57,992 nucleotides of DNA, taken from the IMG/VR virus record IMGVR_UViG_3300033141_003442; one strand, given 5' to 3'. This document shows, piece after piece, positions 17,076-47,352 of this stretch. This DNA comes from a virus. The translations under genes and the position numbers were made by a program. The notes under the pieces were generated by a model, which saw only the letters and a list, made by a program, of their open reading frames with translations, was not told where the DNA came from and made no database searches. How positions within the stretch are numbered: the stretch's first letter is position 1; each line of letters starts with the position of its first letter.

Positions 17076-18764
17076 TTATTTACCTATCCAATGTCTTCTC
17101 TCTTTTTCTTGGTTTTGTAATTCTCTCCATCTATCTTTTCTTTTTTTAGCCATTTCACGGCGTTCAAAATAAGGGAATAAATATAAAATTATATATCCAA
17201 TACAATCCATGCCATGAGCTAAATATTCATCTCTTTCCCAAGTTAATTCATTAGTCTTTTTAGTTTTAAGATATTGGAAACATCTATGAATATAAGCACA
17301 ACTTTCTGTTGAAATAAAATTTTCTACAGGGTTATCAGGAATTTCATCATTTATCAAAAGCCCAGGTTTCCCATTATATTCATCAGTTAATTTATTTCTT
17401 ATTTGCACGGTCATCCGTTCTTTTCTGTTAGGAATAGGTATAACAGGAGATAAGCCAGCAGCTATTAAAGCTTCTACACTCATTCCTTTATCGGTTCTTT
17501 GTTGTCCTGCTTCATCTGCAAGATAAATAAATGATGCTGCTTTTCCAAACCATTGTTTTAATTTACTTTTTACATATTTAGCAAAGGGAAATATATCTAT
17601 TTGTTTACCAAGAATACATTTTAAAATAAGAAGACAATCATCATCATCTACTTGAGCACATACCACGCAGGGATGTAGAAAGCCATAATCTATGCCTACA
17701 TATACAGGTTTTTCTTTAATATATGTAAGCTGTCTTATATGCTTAAATTTATCATATTGGGGAAAATGTTTGCCTGATTGTGGAATATCAAAAGTTCCTA
17801 ATACATTTATAGCAAAGTCAATAGCTCCTCTTTGTTGTTTTTCTCTTTCCACATCCTTTTTAGACATCTCATCATCATATCTCCAATCAAACTCATAAAT
17901 ACTAGGTAACTTTAAATTTGGATTTGTCCTTAACGGTTGTCTTTTACTGAATAATTGATAGAAATAATAAGAAGTATAATCATTATCAGCAGGTATAAGT
18001 CTTTCTCTAGCAGGAGTTCCACAAGCTATTCTACATGATACTGTATCAGTTAATGTTGACCATGCTGCGGCGTCTGTATGATACCATAAAGTATATTCAT
18101 CTAAAAAGGCTGCTCTTGCTCTACCACCAGCTCCAAAATCTGCTGTATTTGCCTTTCCTCTAATAGATACTCCAGTTTCAGGATTGATTAAAAGGCGTGT
18201 CCTGTCATGTTCTCTCCATTTAAATCCTTTAGGTAATAACCAATCAGGTAGTGATTTCAATAAATATCTTACTTTTTCAAAAAGACTATCCATATCTCCT
18301 CTTCTATCTACTGTTTCTTCATTCACTGAACCAAGAAGAAAATCACTAGGAAAGAATGGATTAAGAAAAAAGAAAAGAAAAACTCCTGCTACTGTAAAAG
18401 TAAATCCGATACTTCTTTTTTTAAGAGCTATTAAATCGCCTCCATATAATATTCTTTCAACAATAGCTGGGACTAATATTTCTCTTTGATATTTCCATAA
18501 AATATATGGTCTATGAGGACTATTAGGATGTCTTACTGGACAATATATATAAAGAAAACAATCAAAGAAAAAGATTATATCTTTAAAAGTATATAATTTA
18601 ATATCCTGTCTGAATTTACTATCTTTCCTTGCTTTTTTGAGAAGTTCTCTTCTAAATTCTAAATTTGCCTTATATTCTATTGGATATTTTATCTTATTTT
18701 TAGGAAAAACAGCATTTAAATGTTCAATAGAGGGTGCAAACTCAGAGAATTTTTGGGATTTCAT
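17076..18764 (-). CDS. terL: Terminase large subunit
   Basis: 562 aa; ATPase motifs (LWKYQREIL, GGDLIALKKRSIGFT, Walker B-like AAFLDEYTLW); nuclease-domain acidic motifs (VGIDYG, LADEAG, HGMDCIGY). Confidence 0.75.
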   Translation of the reverse strand: MKSQKFSEFAPSIEHLNAVFPKNKIKYPIEYKANLEFRRELLKKARKDSKFRQDIKLYTFKDIIFFFDCFLYIYCPVRHPNSPHRPYILWKYQREILVPAIVERILYGGDLIALKKRSIGFTFTVAGVFLFFFLNPFFPSDFLLGSVNEETVDRRGDMDSLFEKVRYLLKSLPDWLLPKGFKWREHDRTRLLINPETGVSIRGKANTADFGAGGRARAAFLDEYTLWYHTDAAAWSTLTDTVSCRIACGTPARERLIPADNDYTSYYFYQLFSKRQPLRTNPNLKLPSIYEFDWRYDDEMSKKDVEREKQQRGAIDFAINVLGTFDIPQSGKHFPQYDKFKHIRQLTYIKEKPVYVGIDYGFLHPCVVCAQVDDDDCLLILKCILGKQIDIFPFAKYVKSKLKQWFGKAASFIYLADEAGQQRTDKGMSVEALIAAGLSPVIPIPNRKERMTVQIRNKLTDEYNGKPGLLINDEIPDNPVENFISTESCAYIHRCFQYLKTKKTNELTWERDEYLAHGMDCIGYIILYLFPYFERREMAKKRKDRWRELQNQEKERRHWIGK

Positions 18765-18811
18765 ATATATTTTTTATATTAAATCGTTCTTTTTGTCAAT
18801 TTACCATTGCC

Positions 18812-18840
18812 TTGACAAAATTATGATTATAATTTATCAT
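18812..18840 (+). promoter_or_regulatory. Sigma70-like promoter TTGACA-N17-TATCAT upstream of the portal gene
   Basis: TTGACA at 18812-18817, 17-nt spacer, TATCAT at 18835-18840; lies in the divergent terL/portal intergenic region. Confidence 0.4.
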
Positions 18841-18857
18841 ATCCATAATAAATTCTT

Positions 18858-20774
18858 ATGAGAAAAAAGAAAGAAATAGATGTTATTTTAGAACGATATG
18901 AAGAAACAAAGTCTGCCTATAAGGATTTTTGGAAAAAGGCTGAAGAAAGCTACGGCTTTGTTTATGGCAACAAATATCAATGGTATGTAGATGGAAGCGA
19001 CAAATACTATAAAGATTTAAAAGATGCAGAGCGCCCTACTTTATCTATAAATAGAATACAGGCCAAATTAAATCTCCTTGATGGTTATTTTCTTACTACC
19101 AGATATGATATTAAATTCCGTCCACAACAAAAGAAAGACCAAGAAATAGTTGATATAGCTAATCAATTATATAAATTAGTTTGGTATCAAATAAAAGGCG
19201 ATGCGATTGAAGGAGAAGTTTTTTATAATGGCATAATTTCAGGAGAGCATTATTTTTATATTTATCCTGATTATTCTAAAGATATTATTCGTGGTGATGT
19301 AGGTCTTTGTGCTTGTTCTCCATGGGAGATAATGTTTGACCCACGAGCAAAACGATATGATAAAACAGATGCTGAATATGTCTTTAGGTCTGTATGGCTT
19401 CCCATAGAAACAATTAAACGAAGATGGCCTCAAAAAGCCAGACAAATAGATAAATTAGTTAAAGTTTTAACTATTATCTCTACTGAAGGATTTGAAGCTC
19501 TTAAACAAAGCGTTCATATTACACATCCTTACGATAGATGGAGAGATGCTTTATCACGGCCTTATAATATTAAAGCAAATGAAGGAAGAATAGATGAGTA
19601 TTGGTATAAAACTTGGGAAAAAGTTGAAATTATTGTTGATGCTATTACAAAAAAAGTCATTGATGAAAGTGAAATAGACAAAGAAACCTTGGAAATTAGG
19701 AAAAAAGCTGGAGATATAGAAGTTTTAACCAGATATATTCCTAAAGTAAGAGTTAAATATTTGTTTGGAGATATAGAGCTTAGTGATGAACCTTCTCCTT
19801 GGACAAAAGGAGAATTAGCAAAGAATTTCCCTTTTGTTCCTTTTACAATATATAAAATATATTTACCTACAGAAAAGAAATATTTAATCTGGGGTGCTGT
19901 AGAAGTTCTTAAAGATGTTCAAAGAGAGATAAATAAAAGGCATAGTTATCTTGTAGAGGCTATGCTTAATGCTCCTTATAGTGTTTTAATATATGAAGAC
20001 CAAACTTTTACTCCTGAAAGTGAAGAAGCTTTAAGCAAAAAAGGTTTCCGCCCAGGTATGTCTTTAAAAACTTATCCAGGGAAAATAAATAGTTATAAAA
20101 TTGAAAACACTGTGCAATTCCCTGTAGGTTTATTGGAATTAGAAAATTTAGCTCTTAAAGACGCTGATATAGTTTCTCCTATTATTCCGCCTTCTGGTAA
20201 AGTTAAATCTGGTTCTGCAATGCTTCAAGAAGAAAGAATTATGCTTACAGATAAAGCAAGAATATTTAATAATTTCAAAGATACAAAAATACTTTTAGCT
20301 AGATATTTATTTAATGCTATTCAGCAAACTTATGATTATGAGAAAACTTTTAAGGCTGTTGACAGCGATGAAGAATATACTATAAATCAAGTAGTTTTTG
20401 CTACCAAAACAGAGCCTCATCCACTTACTGGTTCTCCTGTTGAAACTGTTGTTAGAGATAAATTTGGCAGGCCTGTAATAGAAAAAATAGTAAATGATAT
20501 TACAAATGAAGCTCTTGATTTTGATATTATTGCTACTGAAGTTAATGCTTCACCAAGTTATAGATTAGCAGTAGCCAATGATTTATTAAAAATAATTCAG
20601 ACAACGCCAAATCCGATTTTTATTAAAATGTTGTTTGAATATCTAGATTTACCTTCCCATATTAAAAAAGAATTAGAGCAACAAATGAATGCTCAAACGC
20701 AGCAAGCATTACAACAACAAAATTTGCCACAAAATATAAGACAGTTACAAACCCCATTCAAGCAAGGAGGATAA
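18858..20774 (+). CDS. Probable portal protein
   Basis: 638 aa, size and position next to terL; general resemblance to portal proteins; not verified by search. Confidence 0.5.
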   Translation: MRKKKEIDVILERYEETKSAYKDFWKKAEESYGFVYGNKYQWYVDGSDKYYKDLKDAERPTLSINRIQAKLNLLDGYFLTTRYDIKFRPQQKKDQEIVDIANQLYKLVWYQIKGDAIEGEVFYNGIISGEHYFYIYPDYSKDIIRGDVGLCACSPWEIMFDPRAKRYDKTDAEYVFRSVWLPIETIKRRWPQKARQIDKLVKVLTIISTEGFEALKQSVHITHPYDRWRDALSRPYNIKANEGRIDEYWYKTWEKVEIIVDAITKKVIDESEIDKETLEIRKKAGDIEVLTRYIPKVRVKYLFGDIELSDEPSPWTKGELAKNFPFVPFTIYKIYLPTEKKYLIWGAVEVLKDVQREINKRHSYLVEAMLNAPYSVLIYEDQTFTPESEEALSKKGFRPGMSLKTYPGKINSYKIENTVQFPVGLLELENLALKDADIVSPIIPPSGKVKSGSAMLQEERIMLTDKARIFNNFKDTKILLARYLFNAIQQTYDYEKTFKAVDSDEEYTINQVVFATKTEPHPLTGSPVETVVRDKFGRPVIEKIVNDITNEALDFDIIATEVNASPSYRLAVANDLLKIIQTTPNPIFIKMLFEYLDLPSHIKKELEQQMNAQTQQALQQQNLPQNIRQLQTPFKQGG

Positions 20775-20777
20775 GGC

Positions 20778-21752
20778 ATGGGTGAAGAAGAAACCAAAGA
20801 AACAATAGAAAACCCTGAGGAAACTTTATCTCCAGAAGGAACTGAAGAAACTACAAAGCCACAAGTATCTTCTGAAGAAACTGAAAAAGAACCTGAAACA
20901 CCGCCAGAGAAAAAAGATAAAGAATATAATTTTAAAGTTTTAAGAAATGAATTAGAAAAACAGAAGAAGTTAGTTGATTATTATGCTAATCTAGCAAAAC
21001 AAACACAAACTCAGCCAGTTCAACCACCTTATGATATTCCTAAGCAACCATTTCCACAGAATATTCCACAAACTCCTCTTATTCCTACACCAACAATGCC
21101 TACTTCTTTTAGTCCTGTGCCACCTAATGTTACTCCAACTTCGCCTACTTTATCTAAAGATATAACTGAGTTTAGCCCTGAAGAAGAAACACAAATAGCT
21201 GAAGCAGATGATCCTGCTGCTAAAGCAAAAGAAATTTTACAAAATAAAATTCGTGCTTATACTGATTATATTTATCAAGCACAAGCCCTACAGCAACCAC
21301 AAATCTCTCCAACAGATATTGCTCGTTTAATAGATGAAAAGGTAAATGAAAAATTAGAAATGGATAGAGTGCAAAGAGGATTAGAAGAAGTAAGCCAAAA
21401 CCCAGAATTTATTGAACTTGTTAAGAAACATGTAGAACCTACTAAAGATAGATTAGCATCTTTCTGGAATAGTTTTTATGTATTTGGAGAAAATGCAGGT
21501 AAGGTTTTGTATGAAGTTTTAAAGGCTTTAGATAAAAGTGAGCCAGAGGTAGCTAAGGAAGCTTTTAAAGCTGGGCAAAAACAAATTGTTGAAAAGTTAC
21601 AGCAAAGAGCAACAGCTCCAACTCCACCTATGGGTAGAGTATCTACAAAAACAGAATATACAGCAGAAGATTTAGAAAATATGTCTGTTGATGAGATAAT
21701 GAATGTTCCACCTGAAATAATAGAGAAATGGAGAAAAGGAGAATTGGATTAA
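20778..21752 (+). CDS. Hypothetical protein, acidic N-terminus and Pro/Gln-rich (scaffold-like?)
   Basis: 324 aa directly after the putative portal; low-complexity P/Q/T-rich region. Confidence 0.3.
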   Translation: MGEEETKETIENPEETLSPEGTEETTKPQVSSEETEKEPETPPEKKDKEYNFKVLRNELEKQKKLVDYYANLAKQTQTQPVQPPYDIPKQPFPQNIPQTPLIPTPTMPTSFSPVPPNVTPTSPTLSKDITEFSPEEETQIAEADDPAAKAKEILQNKIRAYTDYIYQAQALQQPQISPTDIARLIDEKVNEKLEMDRVQRGLEEVSQNPEFIELVKKHVEPTKDRLASFWNSFYVFGENAGKVLYEVLKALDKSEPEVAKEAFKAGQKQIVEKLQQRATAPTPPMGRVSTKTEYTAEDLENMSVDEIMNVPPEIIEKWRKGELD

Positions 21753-22183
21753 TCTTTTTTTGCTAAGTTTTTAAGTTGTTTTAATTTTCTCATAAGTTGT
21801 ATTTCTTTTTTTCTTTCTAACTGTATCATTTTATACATTTCCTGTTTGCTTAAACGGGCTTTTTCTTTTTCTTGTTCTATTTCTTTCACTCTCTTTTTCA
21901 CATCCATCTTAGCCAATTCCATTAATTCTAATACTTTTAAAAGAGGATTACCAAATTCTTTTGGATACAGCCAACATAATCTACTAACTCCTGTTACTTG
22001 TTCTAGCTTTTTTGCTAATTCTAAAGAAGGTCTTGTATCCTGATGAGCCCATCTACATAAAGAGCCAAATGAGGCCCCAGTTGCCTGAGACAACTTCTTT
22101 AAAATTTCATAATATTGCTTTCTTAGTTTGCGGTATCGTCTTTTTGGTTTTTCTATTGGTTCGTCAAACCACTTATTCTTCAT
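21749..22183 (-). CDS. HTH DNA-binding protein with coiled-coil, basic C-terminus
   Basis: Predicted HTH (SLELAKKLEQVTGVSRLCW); last gene of the minus-strand block; its stop overlaps the stop of the convergent plus gene. Confidence 0.5.
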   Translation of the reverse strand: MKNKWFDEPIEKPKRRYRKLRKQYYEILKKLSQATGASFGSLCRWAHQDTRPSLELAKKLEQVTGVSRLCWLYPKEFGNPLLKVLELMELAKMDVKKRVKEIEQEKEKARLSKQEMYKMIQLERKKEIQLMRKLKQLKNLAKKD

Positions 22184-22337: not shown

Positions 22338-22565
22338 TTAATATTCTACTTCTTCTTTTTCCATCCAAATTCTAAATTTCCAACCACATTCGCTACAATT
22401 GAAGTTAATTGCATTGTCAGAAATATTTTTTTTATTTGGGCAAGAAAATATTATTTTAAGTTCTTCTCCTTCTGGCCAATGCCCAAATGTATATATTTTA
22501 CCACAATTTGGACACTGCCAAATAAGTTTACAAAGTTTTTCTTTCATTTTTTTCTCCTTATTCAA
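22338..22565 (-). CDS. Small Zn-ribbon protein
   Basis: CxxC pairs (CPNCGK, CSECG). Confidence 0.5.
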   Translation of the reverse strand: MNKEKKMKEKLCKLIWQCPNCGKIYTFGHWPEGEELKIIFSCPNKKNISDNAINFNCSECGWKFRIWMEKEEVEY

Positions 22566-23094
22566 TATTTAACAAATATCTTTTAATCCCATTATTAATT
22601 AAAAATGCTGCTTTTATTTGGGCATCGGAAGAATGTAATGGGAGAAGGGGATTATCTATAAAACCTACTTCAATTAAAACAGCAGGCATTTTGGTTTTCC
22701 TTAATACATAAAAATTTCCTTCTTTAATTCCTCTGAACTTGCCTGGGACAATCTCATCAATAAATGTAGCAATATTATCTGCTAGTTTAGCACTTTTAAT
22801 TGAACCAGGATAAATCCAGATTTCCTCTCCCTTAGCATTATGTTTAGGAGAAGCATTAACATGAATACTAACAAAGGCATCTGCTTTTACACTATTTGCA
22901 ATAAAAACCCTATCTCGCAATGGCACATATATATCAGCCGTTCTGGTATAAATACAGTTTACCATATTGGATAAAAAACCACCCAAATATAATGCAATAG
23001 GCAAAACTATATCTTTTTCTTTGTATCCTGCATAAACAGCCCCTGGGTCTTTACCTCCATGCCCTGGGTCAATTACTATGGTGTATTTTTTCAT
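22558..23094 (-). CDS. N-acetylmuramoyl-L-alanine amidase (Amidase_3-type endolysin)
   Basis: N-terminal IVIDPGHGGKDPGA and downstream Zn-ligand pattern typical of Amidase_3 / CwlV-like enzymes. Confidence 0.8.
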   Translation of the reverse strand: MKKYTIVIDPGHGGKDPGAVYAGYKEKDIVLPIALYLGGFLSNMVNCIYTRTADIYVPLRDRVFIANSVKADAFVSIHVNASPKHNAKGEEIWIYPGSIKSAKLADNIATFIDEIVPGKFRGIKEGNFYVLRKTKMPAVLIEVGFIDNPLLPLHSSDAQIKAAFLINNGIKRYLLNIE

Positions 23095-27057: not shown

Positions 27058-27441
27058 TCACCAGATATATTTACCTGCTATATCTACCAAAGCAAGAAAC
27101 ACATCATCCTTCACCTTTTCTCTTGGGTCTAATTTTTCATAGGGAACAAGGTCTGGATGTATTTTCCTATCTGGGTCATAAACTTTGCCATACTTCCATC
27201 CCATTTCCTTATACTTTCTCATCCAAGAGTCATGAGCAGTTTTGGGGTCAGAAAATGCCCGTTTCCCTGTAATTAAATCATCAACAAGCTCAATAAATTG
27301 TGATTTAAACTCACCTTCTCGTTCATTCCAAGGTTTAGGGATTACTGGGCAATTAAGCATCCTTGCATGTAGTCTTGCTCCTTCATAAACAAAGATTGCC
27401 CTACGAATTGCCTTACTCATTTCTAATGCATCTTTTTTCAT
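27058..27441 (-). CDS. RyR-domain (ryanodine-receptor-like domain) protein
   Basis: Motif AHDSWMRKYKEMGWKYGKVYDPDRKIHPDLVPYEKL fits the RyR-domain pattern known from phage proteins. Confidence 0.45.
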   Translation of the reverse strand: MKKDALEMSKAIRRAIFVYEGARLHARMLNCPVIPKPWNEREGEFKSQFIELVDDLITGKRAFSDPKTAHDSWMRKYKEMGWKYGKVYDPDRKIHPDLVPYEKLDPREKVKDDVFLALVDIAGKYIW

Positions 27442-27489: not shown

Positions 27490-27750
27490 TCATTTTTTGT
27501 CCTCTCCAATTTTGTATTTTGGCTCAGTAATTTCCAACCCTCTTTCAAGGCTAACTTCTATCCATGCCCTCTTTGCTTCTTGCAATCTTTTTAGAGCTTC
27601 TTCTCTAGTCTTGCCCTCAGCTCCACAACCAGGTAATTCAGGTATTTCTGCACCAAAATATTTCTCGCCATTGTATTCAGTGTATTTGAATATTCTGATA
27701 GTATAAGGCAAATTTAAATAATATTTTAAATCTTTCTTTAAAACTCCCAT
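27490..27750 (-). CDS. HicB-like (UPF0150 family) protein, orphan antitoxin-type domain
   Basis: YTEYNGEKYFGAEIPELPGCGAEGKTREEALKRLQEAKRAWIE matches the HicB/UPF0150 signature; no HicA partner seen. Confidence 0.6.
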   Translation of the reverse strand: MGVLKKDLKYYLNLPYTIRIFKYTEYNGEKYFGAEIPELPGCGAEGKTREEALKRLQEAKRAWIEVSLERGLEITEPKYKIGEDKK

Positions 27751-29663: not shown

Positions 29664-29816
29664 TTAGTCTTTGATTTTAAAATATTGCTTCAATGCCTGC
29701 CTTATTATATAGCTCCGATTGACATCTTTTTTCTCGCATTCTTTATCAATCCTTACCAAATAATCAAGAGGTAAAGAAACAGTTACCGTGGTATTTCTTC
29801 CTCGTTGCATTTTCAT
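29664..29816 (-). CDS. Ribbon-helix-helix (CopG/Arc-like) DNA-binding protein (50 aa, missed by ORF track)
   Basis: Manual translation gives MKMQRGRNTTVTVSLPLDYLVRIDKECEKKDVNRSYIIRQALKQYFKIKD; ATGA overlap with the upstream stop. Confidence 0.5.
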   Translation of the reverse strand: MKMQRGRNTTVTVSLPLDYLVRIDKECEKKDVNRSYIIRQALKQYFKIKD

Positions 29817-34045: not shown

Positions 34046-35173
34046 CTATATATCCTTTAAAATGCCTGAAATGACAGGTTTAATATAGCTATCGTATAAA
34101 CCGTCTCTTTCTTCTTCAGTAGTCGTCCAGACTTTTTCAGGTTTGGGATATTGAACGCCTGGCTTATCCTCCCACCGCCGTTGAGCAAGGAATGTGCTGG
34201 GATATATAATATATTCTAGTTCCATATTAGGCCATTCATACTTTATGTAATTATCTAAGCCTTCCATTATTTGGTTAAATAAAGCTTCATCAGGATTTAT
34301 TTTTAACCACTCTGCTAAAGCTCCTACTTTGTTTACTTTTCTGGGATAGTTTAGCCAAAACTTCTCAAATAGAATTCGTTGCTTTTTAATATTTTGTAGT
34401 AGTAAATTATCTGGTGGTTTATAGGGCGGAAAAGGTTGTTGTTTTTCTTTTCCACTGATGAATTCACTTTTCTTATTTGAATCTTTAGAGCTATATAGAT
34501 TATTATTTATATATTTTTTATTATTTTCTTTAAAAGAGTTATTTAAAGAAGATTTTATATCTGTAGTATTCTTTGTAGTATTCTTTGTATTTGTCCTAAC
34601 TTCAGGAGAAGGAGGTGGTAACTTTGAAGTAGGGGGGTGGTTACTTTGAAGTAAAGAGGTATTTACTTCGGAATTAGGAGGTGGTGATTCTGAAGTAGGA
34701 AGGTGGTTATCTTGAGGTAAAGAGGGGGTTTTTTTAGATTTGCGTTGGTCGTATGTAATTTTAAGGACATTGTCAATAATTGGTTCTATAAACATGACAT
34801 TTGAAAGTTTTAAACCTTCGTTAGTTTCTATTGTTTTAAATTCTCTTTTAACAAGTTTTAATCTTATCAAATCATCAAAAGCTCTTTTAACCTGTATTTT
34901 TGTGAAACCAAATAAATCCACATAAGACTGGTAATTCTTTTGTAATCTATCAGCTTTAAACTTTTGTCTATAACCAATTACTTCGCCTGTTTCTGGATTT
35001 CTTTCTTCAACTGGCCTATACCAAAAAACAATGTCCGCCAATAATGTTATAGCTACATGATTCACTGTTCCGTTTTGAGTTTTTATATATCTATACCAAC
35101 TTAAGGGGACAGTATTACCAGAAAATTCAACGCCAATTAGTTTTTTACATTGTTCATTTATTTCATTTCTCAT
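34046..35173 (-). CDS. Putative replication initiator / replisome organiser (DnaD-like C-terminal region) with internal low-complexity linker
   Basis: 375 aa; N- and C-terminal globular parts separated by a P/S/T-rich linker encoded by iteron-like DNA repeats; C-terminal F..FW..YP...A.WLK pattern. Confidence 0.45.
   Translation of the reverse strand: MRNEINEQCKKLIGVEFSGNTVPLSWYRYIKTQNGTVNHVAITLLADIVFWYRPVEERNPETGEVIGYRQKFKADRLQKNYQSYVDLFGFTKIQVKRAFDDLIRLKLVKREFKTIETNEGLKLSNVMFIEPIIDNVLKITYDQRKSKKTPSLPQDNHLPTSESPPPNSEVNTSLLQSNHPPTSKLPPPSPEVRTNTKNTTKNTTDIKSSLNNSFKENNKKYINNNLYSSKDSNKKSEFISGKEKQQPFPPYKPPDNLLLQNIKKQRILFEKFWLNYPRKVNKVGALAEWLKINPDEALFNQIMEGLDNYIKYEWPNMELEYIIYPSTFLAQRRWEDKPGVQYPKPEKVWTTTEEERDGLYDSYIKPVISGILKDI
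34611..34722. repeat. Five imperfect roughly 22-bp direct repeats (iteron-like) inside the replication gene; adjacent 12-bp tandem repeat at 34564-34587
   Basis: ggaggtggtaactttgaagtagg / ggggtggttactttgaagtaaag / aggtatttacttcggaattagg / aggtggtgattctgaagtagg / aaggtggttatcttgaggtaaag. Confidence 0.6.
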
Positions 35174-41789: not shown

Positions 41790-42311
41790 TTATAAATAAA
41801 ATTCTTTTCCCAAAACATACTGCAATGCTTCAGCAATATGGGTTGTCTTGATATTATCTTCTTTGTCTATTTCGCTAATAGTTTTAGCAACTCTTAAAGT
41901 TGTCTCTAATTCAGAAGGAAGCATCCCTTTGGTTTTATATGCAGTTTCCAGAAGATTTAACCCTTCTTTATCTATTTTGCTTTTATCAAATTCAAGATAC
42001 TCAAAGTTAAAGCAGTTAATTGCTGTAAAAGTCATATCCGTTTGAGGAAGATTTATTTGATACTTTTTAATTTCTTCTGGCGTGCATTTACATATTCTAT
42101 TTGTGGAATTGAAGTTACCGCAAGGGCAAGGTTTTTTGACATAAATGATTTCTTCCAAAAGGTATCTTTGTTCTTCAGGAATGGTCTTTTTTAATCCGAA
42201 TACTACTTGTTGAATGAAATATACATCACTCGTAATAATCAATAATGAATGTTTGCCATTTAAAGCAACATCTAAAACTCTTAAAAAATGTGGTGAATTA
42301 AATTTAATCAT
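41790..42311 (-). CDS. ComM/YifB (Mg-chelatase-like AAA+) C-terminal-domain-like protein; tentative
   Basis: CPCGNFNSTNRICKCT Zn-binding-like motif and C-terminal helix TTHIAEALQYVLG. Confidence 0.35.
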   Translation of the reverse strand: MIKFNSPHFLRVLDVALNGKHSLLIITSDVYFIQQVVFGLKKTIPEEQRYLLEEIIYVKKPCPCGNFNSTNRICKCTPEEIKKYQINLPQTDMTFTAINCFNFEYLEFDKSKIDKEGLNLLETAYKTKGMLPSELETTLRVAKTISEIDKEDNIKTTHIAEALQYVLGKEFYL

Positions 42312-43809: not shown

Positions 43810-44040
43810 TTATATAGTATTATTTAATGCATTTTTAATAGCTTGTATCTTGCCTCTTTCATAATCATTGTAAGGTTTATGCTTTACAACTTTCTTTAAA
43901 ATATTCATAGATGCTCTTTTAGCGATTTGACAGCCATGATAATACCCCAATTTATACGTTTTTTCCCCATCGTTGTTTGTTACAAACTCTCCATTATGAT
44001 AATAGCCTTTTCCTATATAATGTTTACCATTTTGATACAT
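43810..44040 (-). CDS. Hypothetical protein (76 aa)
   Basis: ORF track. Confidence 0.4.
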   Translation of the reverse strand: MYQNGKHYIGKGYYHNGEFVTNNDGEKTYKLGYYHGCQIAKRASMNILKKVVKHKPYNDYERGKIQAIKNALNNTI

Positions 44041-44042
44041 CG

Positions 44043-44255
44043 TTACTCCTCTCCTTTCTTCAAAATTTTCTCCGTCACCCGCTCAGTACCAATAAGATGC
44101 CGACGGAGAGTAGTTATTTCAGCCTGCAATTTGGCAAGGCATTGAGGGCAAATTCCATGTGTTACGCCCGTGCCTTGCTTTTGCCCTATTACCTTTTTGC
44201 ACCAAGCACAGATGATAGTCATAGTATCACCTCCCTTCAAAATATTCCTTTTCAC
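44043..44255 (-). CDS. Zn-ribbon protein
   Basis: CAWCKK...CPQC. Confidence 0.45.
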   Translation of the reverse strand: MKRNILKGGDTMTIICAWCKKVIGQKQGTGVTHGICPQCLAKLQAEITTLRRHLIGTERVTEKILKKGEE

Positions 44256-44430
44256 AATGCCTAGAGCAGAAAACTAAATGCAAATCCGTTTCAAAAGCAC
44301 GCCGTATTTTTACGGGATAGCGTGCTTTCTTTTCATAGCAATTAGAACAAACATCAGGATAGTTTCCCTTTTTGAGCCAGTCCCGATGAGGATGAAATAC
44401 TTCCCAGTTTTCAGGATATTTGATTTTCAT
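44227..44430 (-). CDS. Zn-ribbon protein
   Basis: CSNCYEKK...CSRHCEKE. Confidence 0.4.
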   Translation of the reverse strand: MKIKYPENWEVFHPHRDWLKKGNYPDVCSNCYEKKARYPVKIRRAFETDLHLVFCSRHCEKEYFEGR

Positions 44431-44447
44431 TTTATCACCTCCTTTTT

Positions 44448-44744
44448 TTATTTCAACGGGATAACTATCCCGTCATACCGCCAGTATTTCAATTTATCTT
44501 TGTCAGAATGCAAACAAAGAGGCATTCCTCTAGGGTCTGAGCAAATATCAACATGAAGTCCCCATTTCTTGGCTATTTCCTTAACTTTCTTTTCAAGTTT
44601 TATTACTCTTTTTTCTTGTCTAGGAGTTAGGCCGTAATTGCAATGCTGTGTGTATAGATTGTGTAGAGAGCGAGCCAACCTTTTCAATTCTTCATAATCT
44701 GCTAGAAACTCTTTTAAATCCTCAATGTTTTTGATGTTTTTCAT
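44448..44744 (-). CDS. Hypothetical protein (start placed at ATG 44744, which has an SD)
   Basis: GGGAGG 6-7 nt upstream of ATG at 44742-44744; the ORF track used an upstream TTG. Confidence 0.45.
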   Translation of the reverse strand: MKNIKNIEDLKEFLADYEELKRLARSLHNLYTQHCNYGLTPRQEKRVIKLEKKVKEIAKKWGLHVDICSDPRGMPLCLHSDKDKLKYWRYDGIVIPLK

Positions 44745-44757
44745 TTTCAAACCTCCC

Positions 44758-44889
44758 TTATTGTTCTTTCTTTAAAAAGCTTACGATTAATATTTTCCTG
44801 TCTTCAAAGCACCACCACATTAAAAAGTGTAATCTTTCAAGCCTTAGTCCTTTTGTTACCTTTACCACTTCTTTGATTTTTTCTAACAT
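44758..44889 (-). CDS. Small hypothetical protein (43 aa), first ORF of the leftward early transcript
   Basis: SD GGAGGTGA 7 nt before ATG; lies just downstream of promoter 44922-44951. Confidence 0.4.
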   Translation of the reverse strand: MLEKIKEVVKVTKGLRLERLHFLMWWCFEDRKILIVSFLKKEQ

Positions 44890-44921
44890 TTTTTAATCAC
44901 CTCCCTTTCTCATGATACCCT

Positions 44922-44951
44922 ATTTTAGCATAATTAAATTTTGTTTGTCAA
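44922..44951 (-). promoter_or_regulatory. Sigma70-like promoter TTGACA-N18-TAAAAT (leftward, early)
   Basis: Plus-strand tgtcaa 44946-44951 and atttta 44922-44927. Confidence 0.45.
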
Positions 44952-45172
44952 GCCCTATTTTAAATTTCTTTGAAAACCACATTAGACAAGGCTTTGAAAA
45001 GAATTTGCACATAACTAGCCTGTAAGCTTGATTAAAACTTATATACCTTAGCCTTCAACCCTTGCTCACAATTGAAATATGACAATATATGTCAATATAT
45101 TTATTTGCTGACCTGCTTAGCTTGCTTATGTCTTCTGCTTCCTTTTATTTTGTCTTGCCTAAATAAATTAAA

Positions 45173-45235
45173 ACCATTCCTAGTCTAAAATAATTCCTAA
45201 TTTAGAACCATTCTAAACTAACACTCATTCTAAAT
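45173..45235. promoter_or_regulatory. Cluster of four ATTC(C)TAA(A/T) half-sites (operator-like) in the early control region
   Basis: aaccattcctag, aattcctaattt, gaaccattctaaac, ctcattctaaat; same half-site forms a perfect palindrome at 46142-46160. Confidence 0.45.
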
Positions 45236-45323
45236 AATATGTTTCCTTTGTTTCTGTAGAAATGATGCGTGTTTTATAAGATATGGCTGACTTAAAAAGT
45301 GTGGGAAAGGATGTCTTGCCCGC

Positions 45324-45351
45324 GTTAACCTCGTTAACTCACTTGGTTAAC
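45324..45351. promoter_or_regulatory. Three GTTAAC palindromic hexamers within 28 bp
   Basis: GTTAAC at 45324-45329, 45333-45338, 45346-45351, upstream of the HNH gene. Confidence 0.3.
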
Positions 45352-45420
45352 CAGTTTAGTCTAGTAAAATTGCCTAATTATATTGATTAAATAAGGGTTT
45401 TAGGGTATTATAATAGTATT

Positions 45421-45936
45421 ATGAAGCAAGGATATAAAGTAAAAAAGGAAGAAATTAGAGAAATTGTAAGACTTTATGTTAAAGAGCATTTGTCTTGTGG
45501 GAAGATTGCCAAAAAGATAGGAAAGATTAGCAGACAACAAGTATGGAATGTATTGAAAAGTTATGGAGTAAATACAACTAAAAAAGATAATGCAGAAGTT
45601 GAGGTTAGATGTGAGTATTGTGGCCAAGTTTTTAAACGGAAACGCTATATTTATTTGAAAAGTCATAAACATTTCTGTTCTTTATCATGTTACCACAAAT
45701 ATTTAAAATTGTCTTCTTATTTTGAGTGGAGACAAGGCCAAAGGATTGCTAGAAAAGTAATTCAATCACACTTTCCTGAAATTGATAGTTTATATCCTAA
45801 TTGGGTAGCCCATCACATTGACGGTGATTGCACTAACAATCATATTTCTAATCTTATGGCTTTTAAATGCCAAGGAGACCATATTAAATGGCATCGTTCC
45901 AAAAATAAACCTAAGCCAATTTGGCCAAAGCAATAG
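45421..45936 (+). CDS. HNH endonuclease with N-terminal HTH and Zn-finger
   Basis: HTH-like SCGKIAKKIGKISRQQVWNVL; CEYCGQ...CSLSC; HNH motif WVAHHIDGDCTNNHISNLMAFKCQGDHIKWH. Confidence 0.7.
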   Translation: MKQGYKVKKEEIREIVRLYVKEHLSCGKIAKKIGKISRQQVWNVLKSYGVNTTKKDNAEVEVRCEYCGQVFKRKRYIYLKSHKHFCSLSCYHKYLKLSSYFEWRQGQRIARKVIQSHFPEIDSLYPNWVAHHIDGDCTNNHISNLMAFKCQGDHIKWHRSKNKPKPIWPKQ

Positions 45937-46059
45937 CCTGCCTTTTTAATTCCTGTCAAACTGTGCCCATGTGCCCTATTTTACTTTGCTTTTCACAACC
46001 AGAGCATTGCCCTTATGCGTTCTAGTTTACTTTGTTGCTTGATTGCTTGGCTGTTTTTT

Positions 46060-46125
46060 TAGGCAGATGGGGGGGTAGGAAAAGGCAGGGGTGAGGGGCG
46101 TTATGAGGGGGTTATATTCCCACCT
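46060..46125. other. G-rich tract cluster followed by a C-rich partially complementary segment (potential G-quadruplex or strong hairpin)
   Basis: gatgggggggtaggaaaaggcaggggtgaggggcgttatgagggggttat then tcccacctcactctccacgcc; stands out in an AT-rich genome. Confidence 0.4.
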
Positions 46126-46141
46126 CACTCTCCACGCCATG

Positions 46142-46160
46142 ATTTAGAATAATTCTAAAT
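46142..46160. promoter_or_regulatory. Perfect 19-bp palindrome ATTTAGAAT-A-ATTCTAAAT immediately upstream of the late-operon -35
   Basis: Read directly; followed by taagaatggttc and TTGACA at 46173-46178. Confidence 0.55.
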
Positions 46161-46172
46161 TAAGAATGGTTC

Positions 46173-46201
46173 TTGACAAACAGTTACAAATGTGTTATAG
46201 G
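46173..46201 (+). promoter_or_regulatory. Candidate late promoter TTGACA-N17-TATAGG (TG at -15/-14) upstream of the capsid gene
   Basis: TTGACA 46173-46178, 17-nt spacer, TATAGG 46196-46201; capsid gene follows with a strong SD. Confidence 0.4.
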
Positions 46202-46347
46202 ATATATATCTGGCAGTATAGGAGTTCGCCACTCCGTTCTTTTATTTCTTAGTTTTCCTATTATTGGCTGTAGTAGGTTTCGCCAGCCTAAAGATAAATG
46301 GGTTTACGTGTAAACGTATAATAAATTTATATAGGAGGTAAAGAAAG

Positions 46348-47352
46348 ATGGCAGATTGGAAACCTGGGAGTTCAATGTATGCAAAGAGGTATGCCACATC
46401 TACCTTTATTGAATATAAGACTGGTATTTGGTGGGACAAGCATGGATATGTGGGGAAGGATGAGAACAATGTAATACAGTTAATAGAGGATTTCACGAGG
46501 GAACCTGGTAATAGTATGAGGTTTTATTTGACTATGGTGCCTGAAGGAGACCCGATTGTTGATGATGATACCTTAGAAGGCAACGAGATGAATATTACCA
46601 ATTACTATCAGGACGTAACGCTTCATGAGTATCGTGGTGGTATTCGTCTTTATGGTAATATGGAAGAGAAGGCGGTTGCCTTTAATATGAGGGAGACAGC
46701 GAGGAGAGTATTAGGAATTTGGAAGAGGCAGGAAACGGGTGATGCTATATTTAGTGCATTAGCCAGTTCTCCGACCAAGGTTATATATGGTGGGGATGCT
46801 ACTTCTACTTCTACTTTAGAGTCTAGTGATTTATGCAATCTTAAGCTTTTATTGCATGCTGCTACTTATGCGGAAAGTGTAGCTGACCCTCGTATTCCTC
46901 CGTTAATAATAGATGGTGAGGAGAAGTATATAGTTATTTTGCACAAGCATTGTTTATCTGATATGCAGTTATATGATAGTGATTTTCGTGCATTAGGGCA
47001 GAGTGTATATCAGAGAAATAGTGATAATCCTTTGATTAAGAGGGCTGCTTTTGTTTACAATAATCTTATTGTTTATTCTACTGATAAGATACCCACTGCT
47101 GATAATTGGGGTTCTGGCGGTGATGTTCATGGAGCTACCAATTTATTGCTTGGTGCTCAAGCAGCTCTTTTAGGTAGGGGCAAGACCAAAGGTGGAGTTA
47201 TTCCTCAATTTGATTGGAGAGAGCAGACTTGGGATTATGGGCATAAATATGGTATTGCTGTTGGTGAAACCAGAGCATTAGCCAAGACTGTTTTTAATTC
47301 CAAGGACTTTTCTACTGTAGCTATTAGGACTGCTGCTAATAGTTATGCTTAA
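46348..47352 (+). CDS. Probable major capsid protein
   Basis: 334 aa; very strong SD (TATAGGAGGTAAAGAAAG-ATG); first gene after the late promoter; size typical of capsid proteins; not verified by search. Confidence 0.45.
   Translation: MADWKPGSSMYAKRYATSTFIEYKTGIWWDKHGYVGKDENNVIQLIEDFTREPGNSMRFYLTMVPEGDPIVDDDTLEGNEMNITNYYQDVTLHEYRGGIRLYGNMEEKAVAFNMRETARRVLGIWKRQETGDAIFSALASSPTKVIYGGDATSTSTLESSDLCNLKLLLHAATYAESVADPRIPPLIIDGEEKYIVILHKHCLSDMQLYDSDFRALGQSVYQRNSDNPLIKRAAFVYNNLIVYSTDKIPTADNWGSGGDVHGATNLLLGAQAALLGRGKTKGGVIPQFDWREQTWDYGHKYGIAVGETRALAKTVFNSKDFSTVAIRTAANSYA

What the first reader, a model, noticed from the sequence alone, without database searches (positions are those of the whole stretch)
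44890..46210. Control region with a shared operator half-site: four direct copies in the early leader and a perfect 19-bp palindrome abutting the late promoter
The half-site ATTC(C)TAA(A/T), often extended to GAACCATTCTAA, occurs four times at 45173-45235 (just past the leftward early promoter 44922-44951) and as a perfect palindrome ATTTAGAATAATTCTAAAT at 46142-46160, immediately upstream of the -35 of the rightward late promoter. A single DNA-binding regulator could coordinate early and late transcription through these sites. The HTH-HNH gene between them (45421..45936) or the HTH protein at 21749..22183 are candidate binders.
Basis: seen in the sequence. Interest (0 to 1): 0.6.

Follow-up and report, generated by a model that had tools for sequence, protein, structure and literature searches.

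The report
Operator repeats controlling phage capsid promoter
A short DNA motif repeated at two spots in the control region of an uncultured phage is a real, conserved array of protein-binding sites that most likely lets one phage regulator control the capsid-gene promoter; this is a familiar kind of phage switch in an unfamiliar phage.

Summary
The repeat is a 17-bp unit (consensus TAGAACCATTCTAAATT) with an internal 7-3-7 dyad, TTTAGAA-N3-TTCTAAA. Four units lie in exact 17-bp phase at 45169-45236. Two more lie inverted at 46143-46176, and the proximal one overlaps the -35 TTGACA of the capsid-operon promoter.

The perfect dyad occurs exactly twice in the 58-kb genome (0.01 expected). The bare half-site is common and not enriched.

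Related contigs keep the core units at 94-98% identity against 69-76% flanks. Only the dyad's central triplet varies. One lineage lacks exactly one 17-bp unit, the "perfect palindrome".

The four-unit array is not in an early leader. It lies 218 bp upstream of the leftward promoter, with no promoter beside it.

The HTH-HNH ORF is a genome-specific insertion and is not the binder. The XRE-type HTH protein at 21749-22183 is kept at 91-92% identity, has an invariant HTH, and belongs to the same conserved block as the late genes. It is the best candidate.

Most likely mechanism: a dimeric regulator bound at about -41 controls the late promoter, and the remote array is an auxiliary site. Activation versus repression is unresolved. 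This is an ordinary kind of system in a new phage lineage.

The parts
44922..44951 (-). Leftward early promoter P_L (TTGACA-18-TAAAAT with TG); the first early gene starts at 44889
   Evidence: 11/12 match plus TG. Relatives keep it with a compensating change, TTGACA-17-TAGAAT. More distant relatives L051/52/57/58/61 also have it.
45169..45236 (+). Distal array of four 17-bp units in exact phase (45169, 45186, 45203, 45220). Unit 3 carries the perfect dyad TTTAGAA-CCA-TTCTAAA (45201-45217). The other units keep mainly the right arm, (C)ATTC(C)TAA.
   Evidence: Pairwise identity of units 2-4 among 5 sequences is 91-94%, against 69-76% for the flanks.
45237..45263 (+). 27-nt block contiguous with the array, equally conserved (ATATGTTTCCTTTGTTTCTGTAGAAAT). 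It contains a further TTTCT-GT-AGAAA dyad.
   Evidence: 95% pairwise identity, 24 of 27 columns invariant. Its role is unknown.
45421..45936 (+). HTH / zf-FCS / HNH homing-endonuclease-like ORF; genome-specific cargo between the two motif clusters, not part of the conserved system
   Evidence: Pfam/PHROG HNH hits. No relative in IMG/VR. L001 has four small minus-strand ORFs in its place and L004 has one.
46143..46159 (.). Late-promoter distal unit: perfect dyad TTTAGAA-TAA-TTCTAAA, centre 46151, about -57 relative to the inferred start site
   Evidence: Arms are kept and the central triplet varies (TAA/TTA/TGA). It is absent as an exact 17-bp deletion in L004/L005. Homology in L025/L032 starts exactly at its left edge.
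46160..46176 (.). Late-promoter proximal unit TTAAGAA-TGG-TTCTTGA (rc GAACCATTCTTAA), centre 46168, about -41. Its right arm overlaps the -35 by 4 bp.
   Evidence: 16 of 17 columns are invariant in 8 sequences, 98.5% pairwise identity.
46173..46201 (+). Rightward promoter of the capsid/structural operon (P_late): perfect -35 TTGACA, 17-bp spacer, TG-extended but weak -10 (TATAGG; TATTGG or TATAGA in relatives; never T at -7)
   Evidence: The major capsid gene starts at 46348 (Phage_capsid_3, 9e-27).
21749..22183 (-). Best candidate binder: 144-aa XRE-type HTH (about residues 29-67) followed by a 64-residue C-terminal helix, a plausible coiled-coil dimeriser
   Evidence: PHROG transcriptional regulator 1.2e-4. 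The 91%-identical cluster representative P0091 passes HTH_3 (27.8 bits); the window's own copy scores 14.3 bits. AF2 mean pLDDT is 84. All top Foldseek hits are Cro/C1 HTH domains, but E is about 0.6. It is 91-92% identical with an invariant HTH in both relative lineages. It lies in the ~90% nucleotide block that continues from the late genes.

Best explanation
The repeats are operators for a sequence-specific, dimeric DNA-binding regulator of the phage.

- Each full site is a 17-bp 7-3-7 dyad (TTTAGAA-N3-TTCTAAA). Its half-sites lie 10 bp apart, the geometry of a helix-turn-helix dimer.
- Two contiguous sites sit immediately upstream of, and overlapping, the -35 of the only conserved promoter in front of the capsid gene. 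Their centres are at about -41 and -57.
- A four-unit array with one perfect site and three half-strength sites lies 0.7-1.15 kb away. It most likely works as an auxiliary, cooperative site that raises occupancy at the promoter by looping or local concentration.
- I favour positive control. The regulator would be made at the far end of the 23-kb leftward unit, bind at about -41, and help host sigma70 RNA polymerase on a promoter whose -10 is defective in every relative. This resembles lambda cI at OR2 activating PRM, or a class II activator.
- The most likely regulator is the XRE-HTH/long-helix protein encoded at 21749-22183.

Shown: the sites, their specificity, their phasing, their conservation pattern and their position relative to the promoter hexamers.
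Inferred: protein binding, the identity of the binder, the start site, the sign of regulation and looping.
For: - The perfect dyad occurs twice in 58 kb against 0.01 expected, both times in this region. TAGA-N5-TCTA occurs only at these two places.
- Phasing is exactly 17 bp in both clusters.
- The conservation is footprint-like. Units 2-4 and the proximal late unit are 91-98% identical, against 69-76% for the flanks. The arms are fixed while the central triplet varies (CCA/TCA/CTA; TAA/TTA/TGA).
- An indel of exactly one unit is seen in two independent contigs, L004 and L005.
- Insertions and replacements in L025 and L032 stop exactly at the edge of the distal unit.
- In relatives, the dyad occurs once per locus and only in the control region.
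- The proximal unit overlaps a perfect -35. The -10 lacks T at -7 in all 8 sequences.
- The HTH protein is co-conserved with the motif-bearing late module.
- More distant relatives share the early genes and P_L but carry a different late module. In the sequence held for them, they lack the array, the late sites and any HTH homologue.
Against: - There are no binding data.
- The binder assignment rests on co-inheritance in only two relative lineages, and on contigs that are incomplete for the negative cases.
- The window's own HTH copy is below the Pfam threshold, and the structural matches are weak (E about 0.6).
- A site overlapping a perfect -35 is equally typical of a repressor.
- Remote auxiliary operators are better known for repressors.
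- The distal array has no adjacent promoter, so its function is assumed rather than derived.
- The start site is inferred, not mapped.
- A terminator-like hairpin at about +13 to +28 suggests late control might instead act mainly by antitermination.
Confidence: 0.45

Rival explanations
1. The sites and the binding are the same, but the protein is a repressor. It occludes the -35 of an intrinsically active late promoter (perfect TTGACA, TG-extended -10). It uses the remote four-unit array for cooperative looping, as lambda, 186 and TP901-1 CI or Lac/Gal repressors do. This would keep the structural operon silent early in infection or in a carrier or lysogenic state.
For: - The proximal unit overlaps the -35 by 4 bp, and the -35 is a perfect consensus.
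- The system has two clusters 0.7-1.15 kb apart.
- XRE-family HTH proteins are mostly repressors, and the top structural neighbours are P22 c2, SinR and DdrO.
Against: - No integrase or other lysogeny function was found among about 65 proteins scanned.
- The candidate gene lies at the far end of the leftward unit, which is late for a protein that must silence a promoter from the start.
- The -10 is defective in all relatives, which argues for low intrinsic activity.
- The early promoters carry no site.
Confidence: 0.27
2. The binder is not the XRE-HTH protein. It could be the 50-aa ribbon-helix-helix protein (29664-29816), binding as a dimer of dimers to TAGA-N5-TCTA as P22 Arc does, or it could be a host regulator.
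For: - RHH_1 scores 2.1e-9, above threshold.
- The dyad can be read as two inverted TAGA boxes. The TAGA box of the 21-bp Arc operator is described in PMC12645479; the full Arc operator sequence is from my memory.
- The RHH protein is 100% identical in both relative lineages.
- Contiguous repeat arrays are typical of RHH proteins.
Against: - The identical RHH protein is also encoded on contig 3300021495_000009. The 20.5 kb held from that contig (L057) includes P_L but has no AGAA-N3-TTCT and no TAGA-N5-TCTA.
- 80%-identical RHH copies occur in two ~60-kb relatives that also lack the motif in the parts held.
- The RHH gene is 15 kb from the sites and belongs to the early module, not to the module that carries the sites.
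- I could match no known host regulator motif, from memory only.
Confidence: 0.12
3. The repeats serve a non-transcriptional function, such as replication-origin iterons, a partition or packaging recognition site, or a nucleoprotein scaffold, and their position next to the late promoter is incidental.
For: - Four regularly spaced direct repeats with internal dyads resemble lambda-type iterons.
- The surrounding 470 bp is non-coding and repeat-rich. It has CGTTAAC 9-bp repeats at 45321-45352, and CCTATT repeats sit at the same place in other lineages.
- No promoter adjoins the distal array.
Against: - A separate 22-bp x 5.2 array lies inside the O-like replication initiator gene (34612-34725), which is the classical place for the origin.
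- The second cluster is welded to a -35 hexamer, and that junction is invariant.
- The terminase gene is 28 kb away.
- The distance and content between the two clusters vary freely among relatives, which is unlike a pac site.
Confidence: 0.08
4. The two clusters are terminal inverted repeats of a mobile or invertible cassette carrying the HNH gene, or relics of an inverted duplication of promoter-upstream DNA with no present function.
For: - The 35-nt arms are 80% complementary and 900-925 bp apart, flanking a lone endonuclease-like ORF (I1/I2).
- The interior cargo differs between relatives.
Against: - The breakpoints of the swapped cargo do not coincide with the repeats. Homology continues about 130 bp inside the left cluster (to ~45365) and 75-190 bp inside the right one (from ~46069, or ~45954).
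- No relative shows the interior inverted.
- There is no transposase or invertase.
- The repeats are under stronger constraint than their flanks.
Confidence: 0.04

Closest known systems
Lambda OR operators with cI at OR2 activating PRM, and long-range OL-OR cooperation (textbook knowledge, not tested here)
   Same: The operators are 17 bp long and partially symmetric, for an XRE/Cro-C1-type HTH dimer. Several operators lie side by side. One is centred at about -41/-42 and touches the -35. A second cluster lies at a distance.
   Different: The units abut with no spacers (17-bp centre-to-centre, against 23-24 bp in lambda). The regulator gene is 24 kb away rather than flanking the operators. Only one promoter is overlapped. 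The target is the structural (late) operon, not an immunity region.
Late-transcription activators of Gram-positive phages (RinA, ArpU, LtrC; Alt of TP901-1), which bind direct repeats just upstream of the late promoter (PMC3753634)
   Same: [quoted passage not shown]
   Different: In those phages the repeats are three 7-nt direct repeats and the activator gene sits directly upstream of them. Here the units are 17-bp dyads, the upstream neighbour is exchangeable cargo, no RinA/ArpU/LtrC-type protein was detected, and there is a second, remote cluster.
Phage phi29 p4 early/late switch (own knowledge)
   Same: There is a compact divergent early/late control region. In relatives, P_L2 and P_late are about 215 bp apart. 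One protein could turn the late promoter on while affecting leftward transcription. A leftward promoter-like site (46179 to 46152) has its -10 inside the distal unit.
   Different: p4 sites are inverted repeats separated by 15 bp and centred at -82, and the late A3 promoter lacks a -35. Here the -35 is perfect, the site is at -41, and the early promoters carry no site.
CI repressors with remote auxiliary operators (TP901-1 OR/OL/OD; coliphage 186 FL/FR) (own knowledge)
   Same: A primary operator at a promoter is combined with distant weaker sites that could be bridged by an oligomeric regulator.
   Different: Those systems control lysis-lysogeny promoters next to the repressor gene. No lysogeny module was found here.
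P22 Arc operator (TAGA boxes; PMC12645479)
   Same: The core reads TAGA-N5-TCTA, and an RHH_1 protein is encoded in the genome.
   Different: The RHH gene is not adjacent, and it occurs unchanged in a relative whose held 20 kb lacks the motif. The half-site conservation extends over 7 bp per arm, which fits an HTH dimer better.

Membership tests
Lambdoid CI/Cro-type operator region | Operators of 14-18 bp, partially palindromic, with half-sites about 10 bp apart | tested here: met
   TTTAGAA-N3-TTCTAAA occurs twice perfectly and once with 3 mismatches beside the -35.
Lambdoid CI/Cro-type operator region | Adjacent operators overlap the core elements of two divergent promoters | tested here: inconclusive
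   Only P_late is overlapped, at its -35. P_L is 218 bp from the array. A leftward promoter-like site at 46179-46152 overlaps the units but is lost in L004/L005.
Lambdoid CI/Cro-type operator region | Repressor and cro genes flank the operators | tested here: not met
   The flanking genes are the capsid gene, an HNH ORF or small exchangeable ORFs, and a 43-aa ORF. The HTH gene is at 21749-22183.
Lambdoid CI/Cro-type operator region | Cooperative binding or looping between operator clusters | not testable with these tools
   This needs EMSA, footprinting, AFM or 3C.
Ltr/Alt late-activator systems (RinA, ArpU, LtrC, Alt) | Repeats immediately upstream of the promoter of the structural operon | tested here: met
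   Two units at 46143-46176 abut the -35.
Ltr/Alt late-activator systems (RinA, ArpU, LtrC, Alt) | [quoted passage not shown] | tested here: not met
   The upstream DNA is a G-rich non-coding block plus exchangeable cargo.
Ltr/Alt late-activator systems (RinA, ArpU, LtrC, Alt) | A protein of the RinA/ArpU/LtrC/Alt families is encoded | tested here: not met
   No such hit was found in Pfam or PHROG scans of about 65 proteins. Sensitivity is limited for small, divergent proteins.
Replication-origin iterons (lambda ori type) | Four or more regularly spaced direct repeats of about 17-22 bp | tested here: met
   4 x 17 bp at 45169-45236.
Replication-origin iterons (lambda ori type) | Located in or beside the initiator gene and specific to it | tested here: not met
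   The O-like initiator gene at 34046-35173 has its own 22-bp x 5.2 array at 34612-34725. The 17-bp units are 10 kb away, and a second set sits on a promoter.
Arc/Mnt-type RHH operator | Inverted TAGA boxes within an operator of about 21 bp | tested here: met
   TAGA-N5-TCTA occurs only at 45203 and 46145 in the window. The TAGA box is described in PMC12645479.
Arc/Mnt-type RHH operator | The cognate RHH gene is adjacent and co-occurs with the operator | tested here: not met
   The RHH gene is at 29664-29816. An identical RHH gene is on a contig whose held 20.5 kb (L057) has no such motif. That contig is incomplete, so absence is not proven.
TIR-bounded mobile or invertible cassette | Inverted repeats lie exactly at the boundaries of the variable or invertible segment | tested here: not met
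   The homology breakpoints are at ~45365 and at ~45954-46069, not at the repeats. The orientation is the same in all relatives.
TIR-bounded mobile or invertible cassette | A transposase or invertase is associated | tested here: not met
   There is only an HNH ORF, and only in the window.

The most novel reading that the evidence does not exclude
The late module of this phage lineage may carry its own self-contained timer-and-enhancer. An XRE-HTH/coiled-coil protein is encoded at the very end of the 23-kb leftward unit. It would bridge a remote four-unit array and the promoter-proximal units, looping out the intervening early promoter P_L2 and whatever cargo sits there. That loop would switch off leftward transcription and switch on a sigma70 late promoter by contact at -41. 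The regulator, both site clusters and the structural genes would then move together as one recombination module between phages that share a different early module.
Probability: 0.15. Interest if true: 0.5.

Novelty: new member of a known kind. Interest (0 to 1): 0.3.

Why it matters
This gives a concrete and cheaply testable regulatory map for a phage lineage with no cultured relative. The closest capsid outside the clade is 36% identical, and cultured phages are about 25% identical. The map consists of one promoter for the structural operon, two defined operator positions, a remote auxiliary array and a named candidate regulator.

It also shows how far footprint-style comparison of metagenomic contigs can go. 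The evidence here was arms fixed while the centre varies, a whole-unit indel, and insertion breakpoints at the site edge. The region is also a hot spot where cargo genes are swapped between fixed regulatory elements. As biology, though, it is a familiar kind of phage switch.

Tried and rejected
- A nucleotide search of 44600-46500 against 50,697 GenBank phages found no match.
- An Rfam scan of 44000-47000 gave only a sub-threshold DUF2815 RNA hit at 44428-44480.
- The capsid protein in genome contigs found no prophage relative, so no host could be assigned.
- The 17-mer AAGAATGGTTCTTGACA in IMG/VR gave 15 contigs. Only the 4 already known are relatives; the rest are chance hits.
- Capsid homologues at 34-36% identity (P0003, P0005) have portal and scaffold genes upstream of the capsid gene on the same strand, so they cannot be used to compare the control region.
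- Pfam and PHROG scans of the ten first early genes and the ten best-conserved early genes found no DNA-binding family.
- The window HTH protein matches no PDB sequence. The HNH ORF gives only weak (E~0.04) PDB matches to its zinc-finger region.
- Hexamer-cluster statistics alone do not support enrichment.
- The late leader (46206-46350) folds no better than shuffled sequence, z = -0.76.
- A promoter next to the distal array was looked for on both strands and not found (and by eye).
- The TIR/invertible-segment, ori and pac readings were considered and rejected for the reasons given under the rival explanations.
Full report
**What the window is**

The 57,992-nt window is a circularly closed phage contig. 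Its ends repeat 114 nt, and GC content is 33%.

Plus-strand genes run from the major capsid gene (46348-47352; Phage_capsid_3, 9e-27) through the window end to about 21752. This stretch includes the portal gene at 18858-20774.

Minus-strand genes run from 44889 down to 21749. They include:
- a RecT-like protein,
- an exonuclease,
- an O-like replication initiator at 34046-35173,
- an Amidase_3 endolysin at 22558-23094.

No phage RNA polymerase was seen. Strong sigma70-type promoters sit in intergenic gaps. The nearest cultured phages are Bcep22-like and KPP25-like podoviruses, at about 23-28% identity for portal and capsid. The nearest capsid outside the clade in a 5.8-billion-protein set is 36% identical. 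The finding therefore lies in the one divergent junction of an otherwise uncharacterised phage.

**Checking the observation**

Three things were missed.
- The four copies start exactly 17 bp apart (ATTC at 45176, 45193, 45210, 45227). They form four units of a 17-bp tandem repeat at 45169-45236.
- Unit 3 with its neighbours forms TTTAGAA-CCA-TTCTAAA (45201-45217).
- The 12 bp between the palindrome and the -35 are not spacer. TTAAGAATGGTTC is the reverse complement of GAACCATTCTTAA. It is another unit, 17 bp from the first, and its right arm runs 4 bp into TTGACA (46173-46178).

The late cluster is therefore two units in the opposite orientation to the four distal ones. It aligns with distal units 2-3 at 28 of 35 positions (I2).

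Statistics depend on how the motif is defined.
- The 9-mer ATTCTAAAT gives 5 hits against 3.6 expected.
- The 12-mer at up to 2 mismatches gives 5 against 9.7 expected.
- The hexamer TTCTAA/TTAGAA occurs 86 times, and its clustering is not significant on its own.
- The 14 specified bases of the dyad occur exactly twice, both here, against 0.01 expected. There are no matches with 1 or 2 mismatches anywhere else.
- TAGA-N5-TCTA occurs only at these two places.
- The five matches of up to 3 mismatches to the 17-mer consensus are all in the two clusters, against 0.8 expected. That consensus came from these sites, so the test is partly circular.

**Position relative to promoters**

The leftward promoter P_L (TTGACA-18-TAAAAT with TG; 44951-44922) fires away from the distal array. 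The array begins 218 bp upstream of its -35. It is therefore not in an early leader.

No promoter-like site adjoins the array on either strand. The nearest are a weak plus-strand site ending at 45101 and sites at about 45383-45438.

The rightward promoter has a perfect -35, a 17-bp spacer, a TG motif and a poor -10 (TATAGG). If transcription starts about 7 nt after the -10, which is an inference, the proximal and distal dyad centres (46168 and 46151) lie at about -41 and -57.

**Relatives**

Capsid-based and pattern-based searches recovered seven distinct related sequences from IMG/VR and JGI metagenomes: L001/L022, L004/L005, L024, L025, L026, L030 and L032. Their capsids are 97-98% identical, but the control region is only about 75% identical. 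That is a useful distance for footprinting. Seven observations follow.

1. Distal units 2-4 plus the next 27 nt (45186-45263) are 91-95% identical pairwise, against 69-76% for the flanks. The proximal late unit is 98.5% identical.
2. Within the dyads the arms are fixed and the central triplet varies. It is CCA, TCA or CTA in distal unit 3, and TAA, TTA or TGA in the late distal unit.
3. L004 and L005 come from two samples, and both lack exactly 17 bp, the whole late distal unit. The 'perfect palindrome' is therefore dispensable. It is also degraded at a core base (TTCT to TTTT) in L001, L024, L025 and L030.
4. In L025 and L032, homology upstream of the promoter ends exactly at the left edge of the distal unit. 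L032 has a 790-bp, two-ORF insertion there.
5. The DNA between the clusters is exchangeable.
   - The window has the HNH ORF.
   - L001 has four small minus-strand ORFs, driven by a second strong leftward promoter (TTGACA-18-TAGAAT plus TG) and closed by a 9-bp-stem terminator.
   - L004 has one small ORF.
   - In the window only the -35 of that second promoter survives (TGTCAA at 45954-45959), and the HNH ORF replaces the rest.
6. In every relative locus the dyad occurs only in the control region.
7. Cargo breakpoints (~45365, and ~45954-46069) do not coincide with the repeats.

**Who binds**

The HNH ORF has no relative in IMG/VR and is absent from relatives that keep both clusters. It is excluded as the conserved binder.

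Pfam and PHROG scans of about 65 proteins, covering nearly the whole leftward unit, found only two clear DNA-binding candidates.

*Candidate 1: the 144-aa protein at 21749-22183.*
- It has a PHROG transcriptional-regulator hit at 1.2e-4.
- Its 91%-identical cluster representative passes HTH_3 at 27.8 bits. The window copy scores 14.3 bits over the same residues.
- The AF2 model (mean pLDDT 84) shows an HTH domain followed by a 64-residue helix.
- All top PDB neighbours are Cro/C1-type domains (P22 c2, SinR, YdaS, DdrO), though with weak E-values of about 0.6.
- It is present at 91-92% identity, with an invariant HTH, on the two long relative contigs that span from the capsid gene to this gene.
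- Nucleotide identity of about 90% extends from the structural genes through this gene and stops abruptly at 22344. Beyond that, the lysis and early genes are replaced or only 68-80% identical.

*Candidate 2: the 50-aa RHH_1 protein at 29664-29816* (2.1e-9). It is 100% identical in both lineages, and the dyad can be read as two Arc-like TAGA boxes. However, the identical protein is also on contig 3300021495_000009. The 20.5 kb held from that contig (L057) includes P_L but has no such motif. 80%-identical copies sit on two ~60-kb relatives that also lack the motif in the parts held.

*More distant relatives.* L051, L052, L057, L058, L060 and L061 share the early genes, P_L and the block up to about 45083. 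They have neither the distal array nor the late sites nor this capsid gene. L058 starts a different rightward operon 170 bp from P_L. The distal array therefore travels with the late module and the HTH gene, not with the early module. This is a co-inheritance argument, not proof, because the negative contigs are only partly held.

**Rivals**

*Origin iterons.* A 22-bp x 5.2 array lies inside the O-like initiator gene (34612-34725). That is the classical location for an origin, and the second 17-bp cluster is welded to a -35.

*Packaging site.* The terminase gene is 28 kb away, and the spacing and content between the clusters vary freely.

*Mobile or invertible cassette.* The breakpoints do not match the repeats, no inversion is seen, and there is no recombinase.

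*Chance or relic.* This is contradicted by the constraint pattern.

**Mechanism**

I take the sites to be operators for a dimeric HTH regulator with half-sites 10 bp apart. The promoter-proximal site is the effector site and the remote array is an auxiliary one.

I lean towards activation for three reasons:
- the -10 lacks the -7 T in all eight sequences;
- the site centre at about -41 matches class II activators, and lambda cI at OR2 for PRM (textbook knowledge);
- the candidate gene is the last gene of a 23-kb unit, a natural delay.

Repression by -35 occlusion with looping is nearly as good. A promoter-like site on the other strand (TTGTCA-16-TAGAAT, 46179 to 46152) has its -10 inside the distal unit, so binding could also shut off a leftward start. 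That site is lost in L004/L005.

**Comparison, novelty and score**

The system works like known phage switches: lambda-type operators, Ltr/Alt late activators with repeats upstream of the late promoter (PMC3753634), phi29 p4, and CI proteins with remote sites. It fails defining features of each as a family:
- the regulator gene is not adjacent;
- there is no RinA/ArpU/LtrC protein;
- the -35 is perfect;
- the units are contiguous at 17 bp.

I rate it a new member of a known kind, with interest 0.3. It is solid and testable but unsurprising to a phage-regulation specialist.

Noticed in passing
window 9554-10732 (-): A TnpB / IS605 OrfB-like gene (Cas12f1-like_TNB 4.4e-22, OrfB_IS605 1.4e-9) is embedded antisense among the structural genes. 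A perfect TTGACA-16-TATAAT plus TG promoter lies at 10769-10742. The overlapping plus-strand ORF 9686-10780 has no hits.
   Followed up: partly
window 34612-34725: A 22-bp x 5.2 tandem array (GGTGGTTACTTTGAAGTA...) lies inside the O-like replication initiator gene (34046-35173). These are probably origin iterons.
   Followed up: partly
window 45321-45352; L001 4759-4860; L004 5185-5310; L051/L052/L057 at the equivalent place: A second repeat family, CTCGTTAAC / CGTTATT, has roughly 9-bp phase. The window has 3 copies, truncated by the HNH insertion; relatives have about 10. More distant relatives carry CCTATT repeats with similar phase at the same relative position. This suggests lineage-specific binding arrays for another protein.
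   Followed up: no
window 46062-46138: This conserved block (GGGGGGGTAGGAAAAGGCAGGGGTGAGGGGCGTTATGAGGGGG...CCCACCTCACTCTCCACGCC) overlaps the most G-rich 80-nt stretch of a 33% GC genome (46033-46112). It lies between the remnant leftward promoter and the late units. In L032 a 790-bp insertion separates it from the late promoter, so it is not part of the late-promoter module.
   Followed up: partly
window 46179-46245: Three features of the late promoter resemble a lambda PR'/Q-type antitermination set-up: an invariant direct repeat GTTAC-N6-GTTAT in the spacer, a -10-like TATATAT around the inferred start, and an invariant terminator-like hairpin GGAGT-TCGCC-ACTCC plus T-run at 46221-46245 (about +13 to +38). 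L032 has a T-G wobble in the stem. No Q-like protein was recognised.
   Followed up: partly
window 45937-46068; L001 4905-5620; L004 5350-5620; L032 170-959: The segment between the two motif clusters is a cargo-exchange hot spot. The window has the HNH ORF, L001 has four small ORFs with their own promoter and terminator, L004 has one small ORF, and L032 has an extra two-ORF insertion. In the window only the -35 (TGTCAA 45954-45959) of the second leftward promoter survives.
   Followed up: yes
L058 4250-4520 (contig IMGVR_UViG_3300017593_000582) and L051/52/57/60/61: Phages that share the early/replication module and P_L carry a different late module. L058 starts a rightward operon 170 bp from P_L. 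This is clear modular mosaicism, with the junction near window position 45083.
   Followed up: partly
window 44918-44927, 44953-44962, 45974-45983: The 10-mer CCCTATTTTA occurs three times within about 1 kb: at the -10 of P_L, just upstream of its -35, and upstream of the remnant second promoter. It is not conserved in relatives.
   Followed up: no
window 27490-27750 (-), 27058-27441 (-), 41790-42311 (-): The early region holds a HicB/UPF0150-like antitoxin-type protein (3.1e-9), a RyR-domain protein (1e-10) and a Mg-chelatase-like AAA fragment. It also holds several small CxxC zinc-ribbon proteins, for example 44043-44255, which is conserved in all relatives.
   Followed up: no
window 17076-18764 (-) and 18771-18840: The large terminase gene is on the minus strand inside the plus-strand structural block. 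Back-to-back sigma70-like promoters lie in the 93-bp gap before the portal gene.
   Followed up: no
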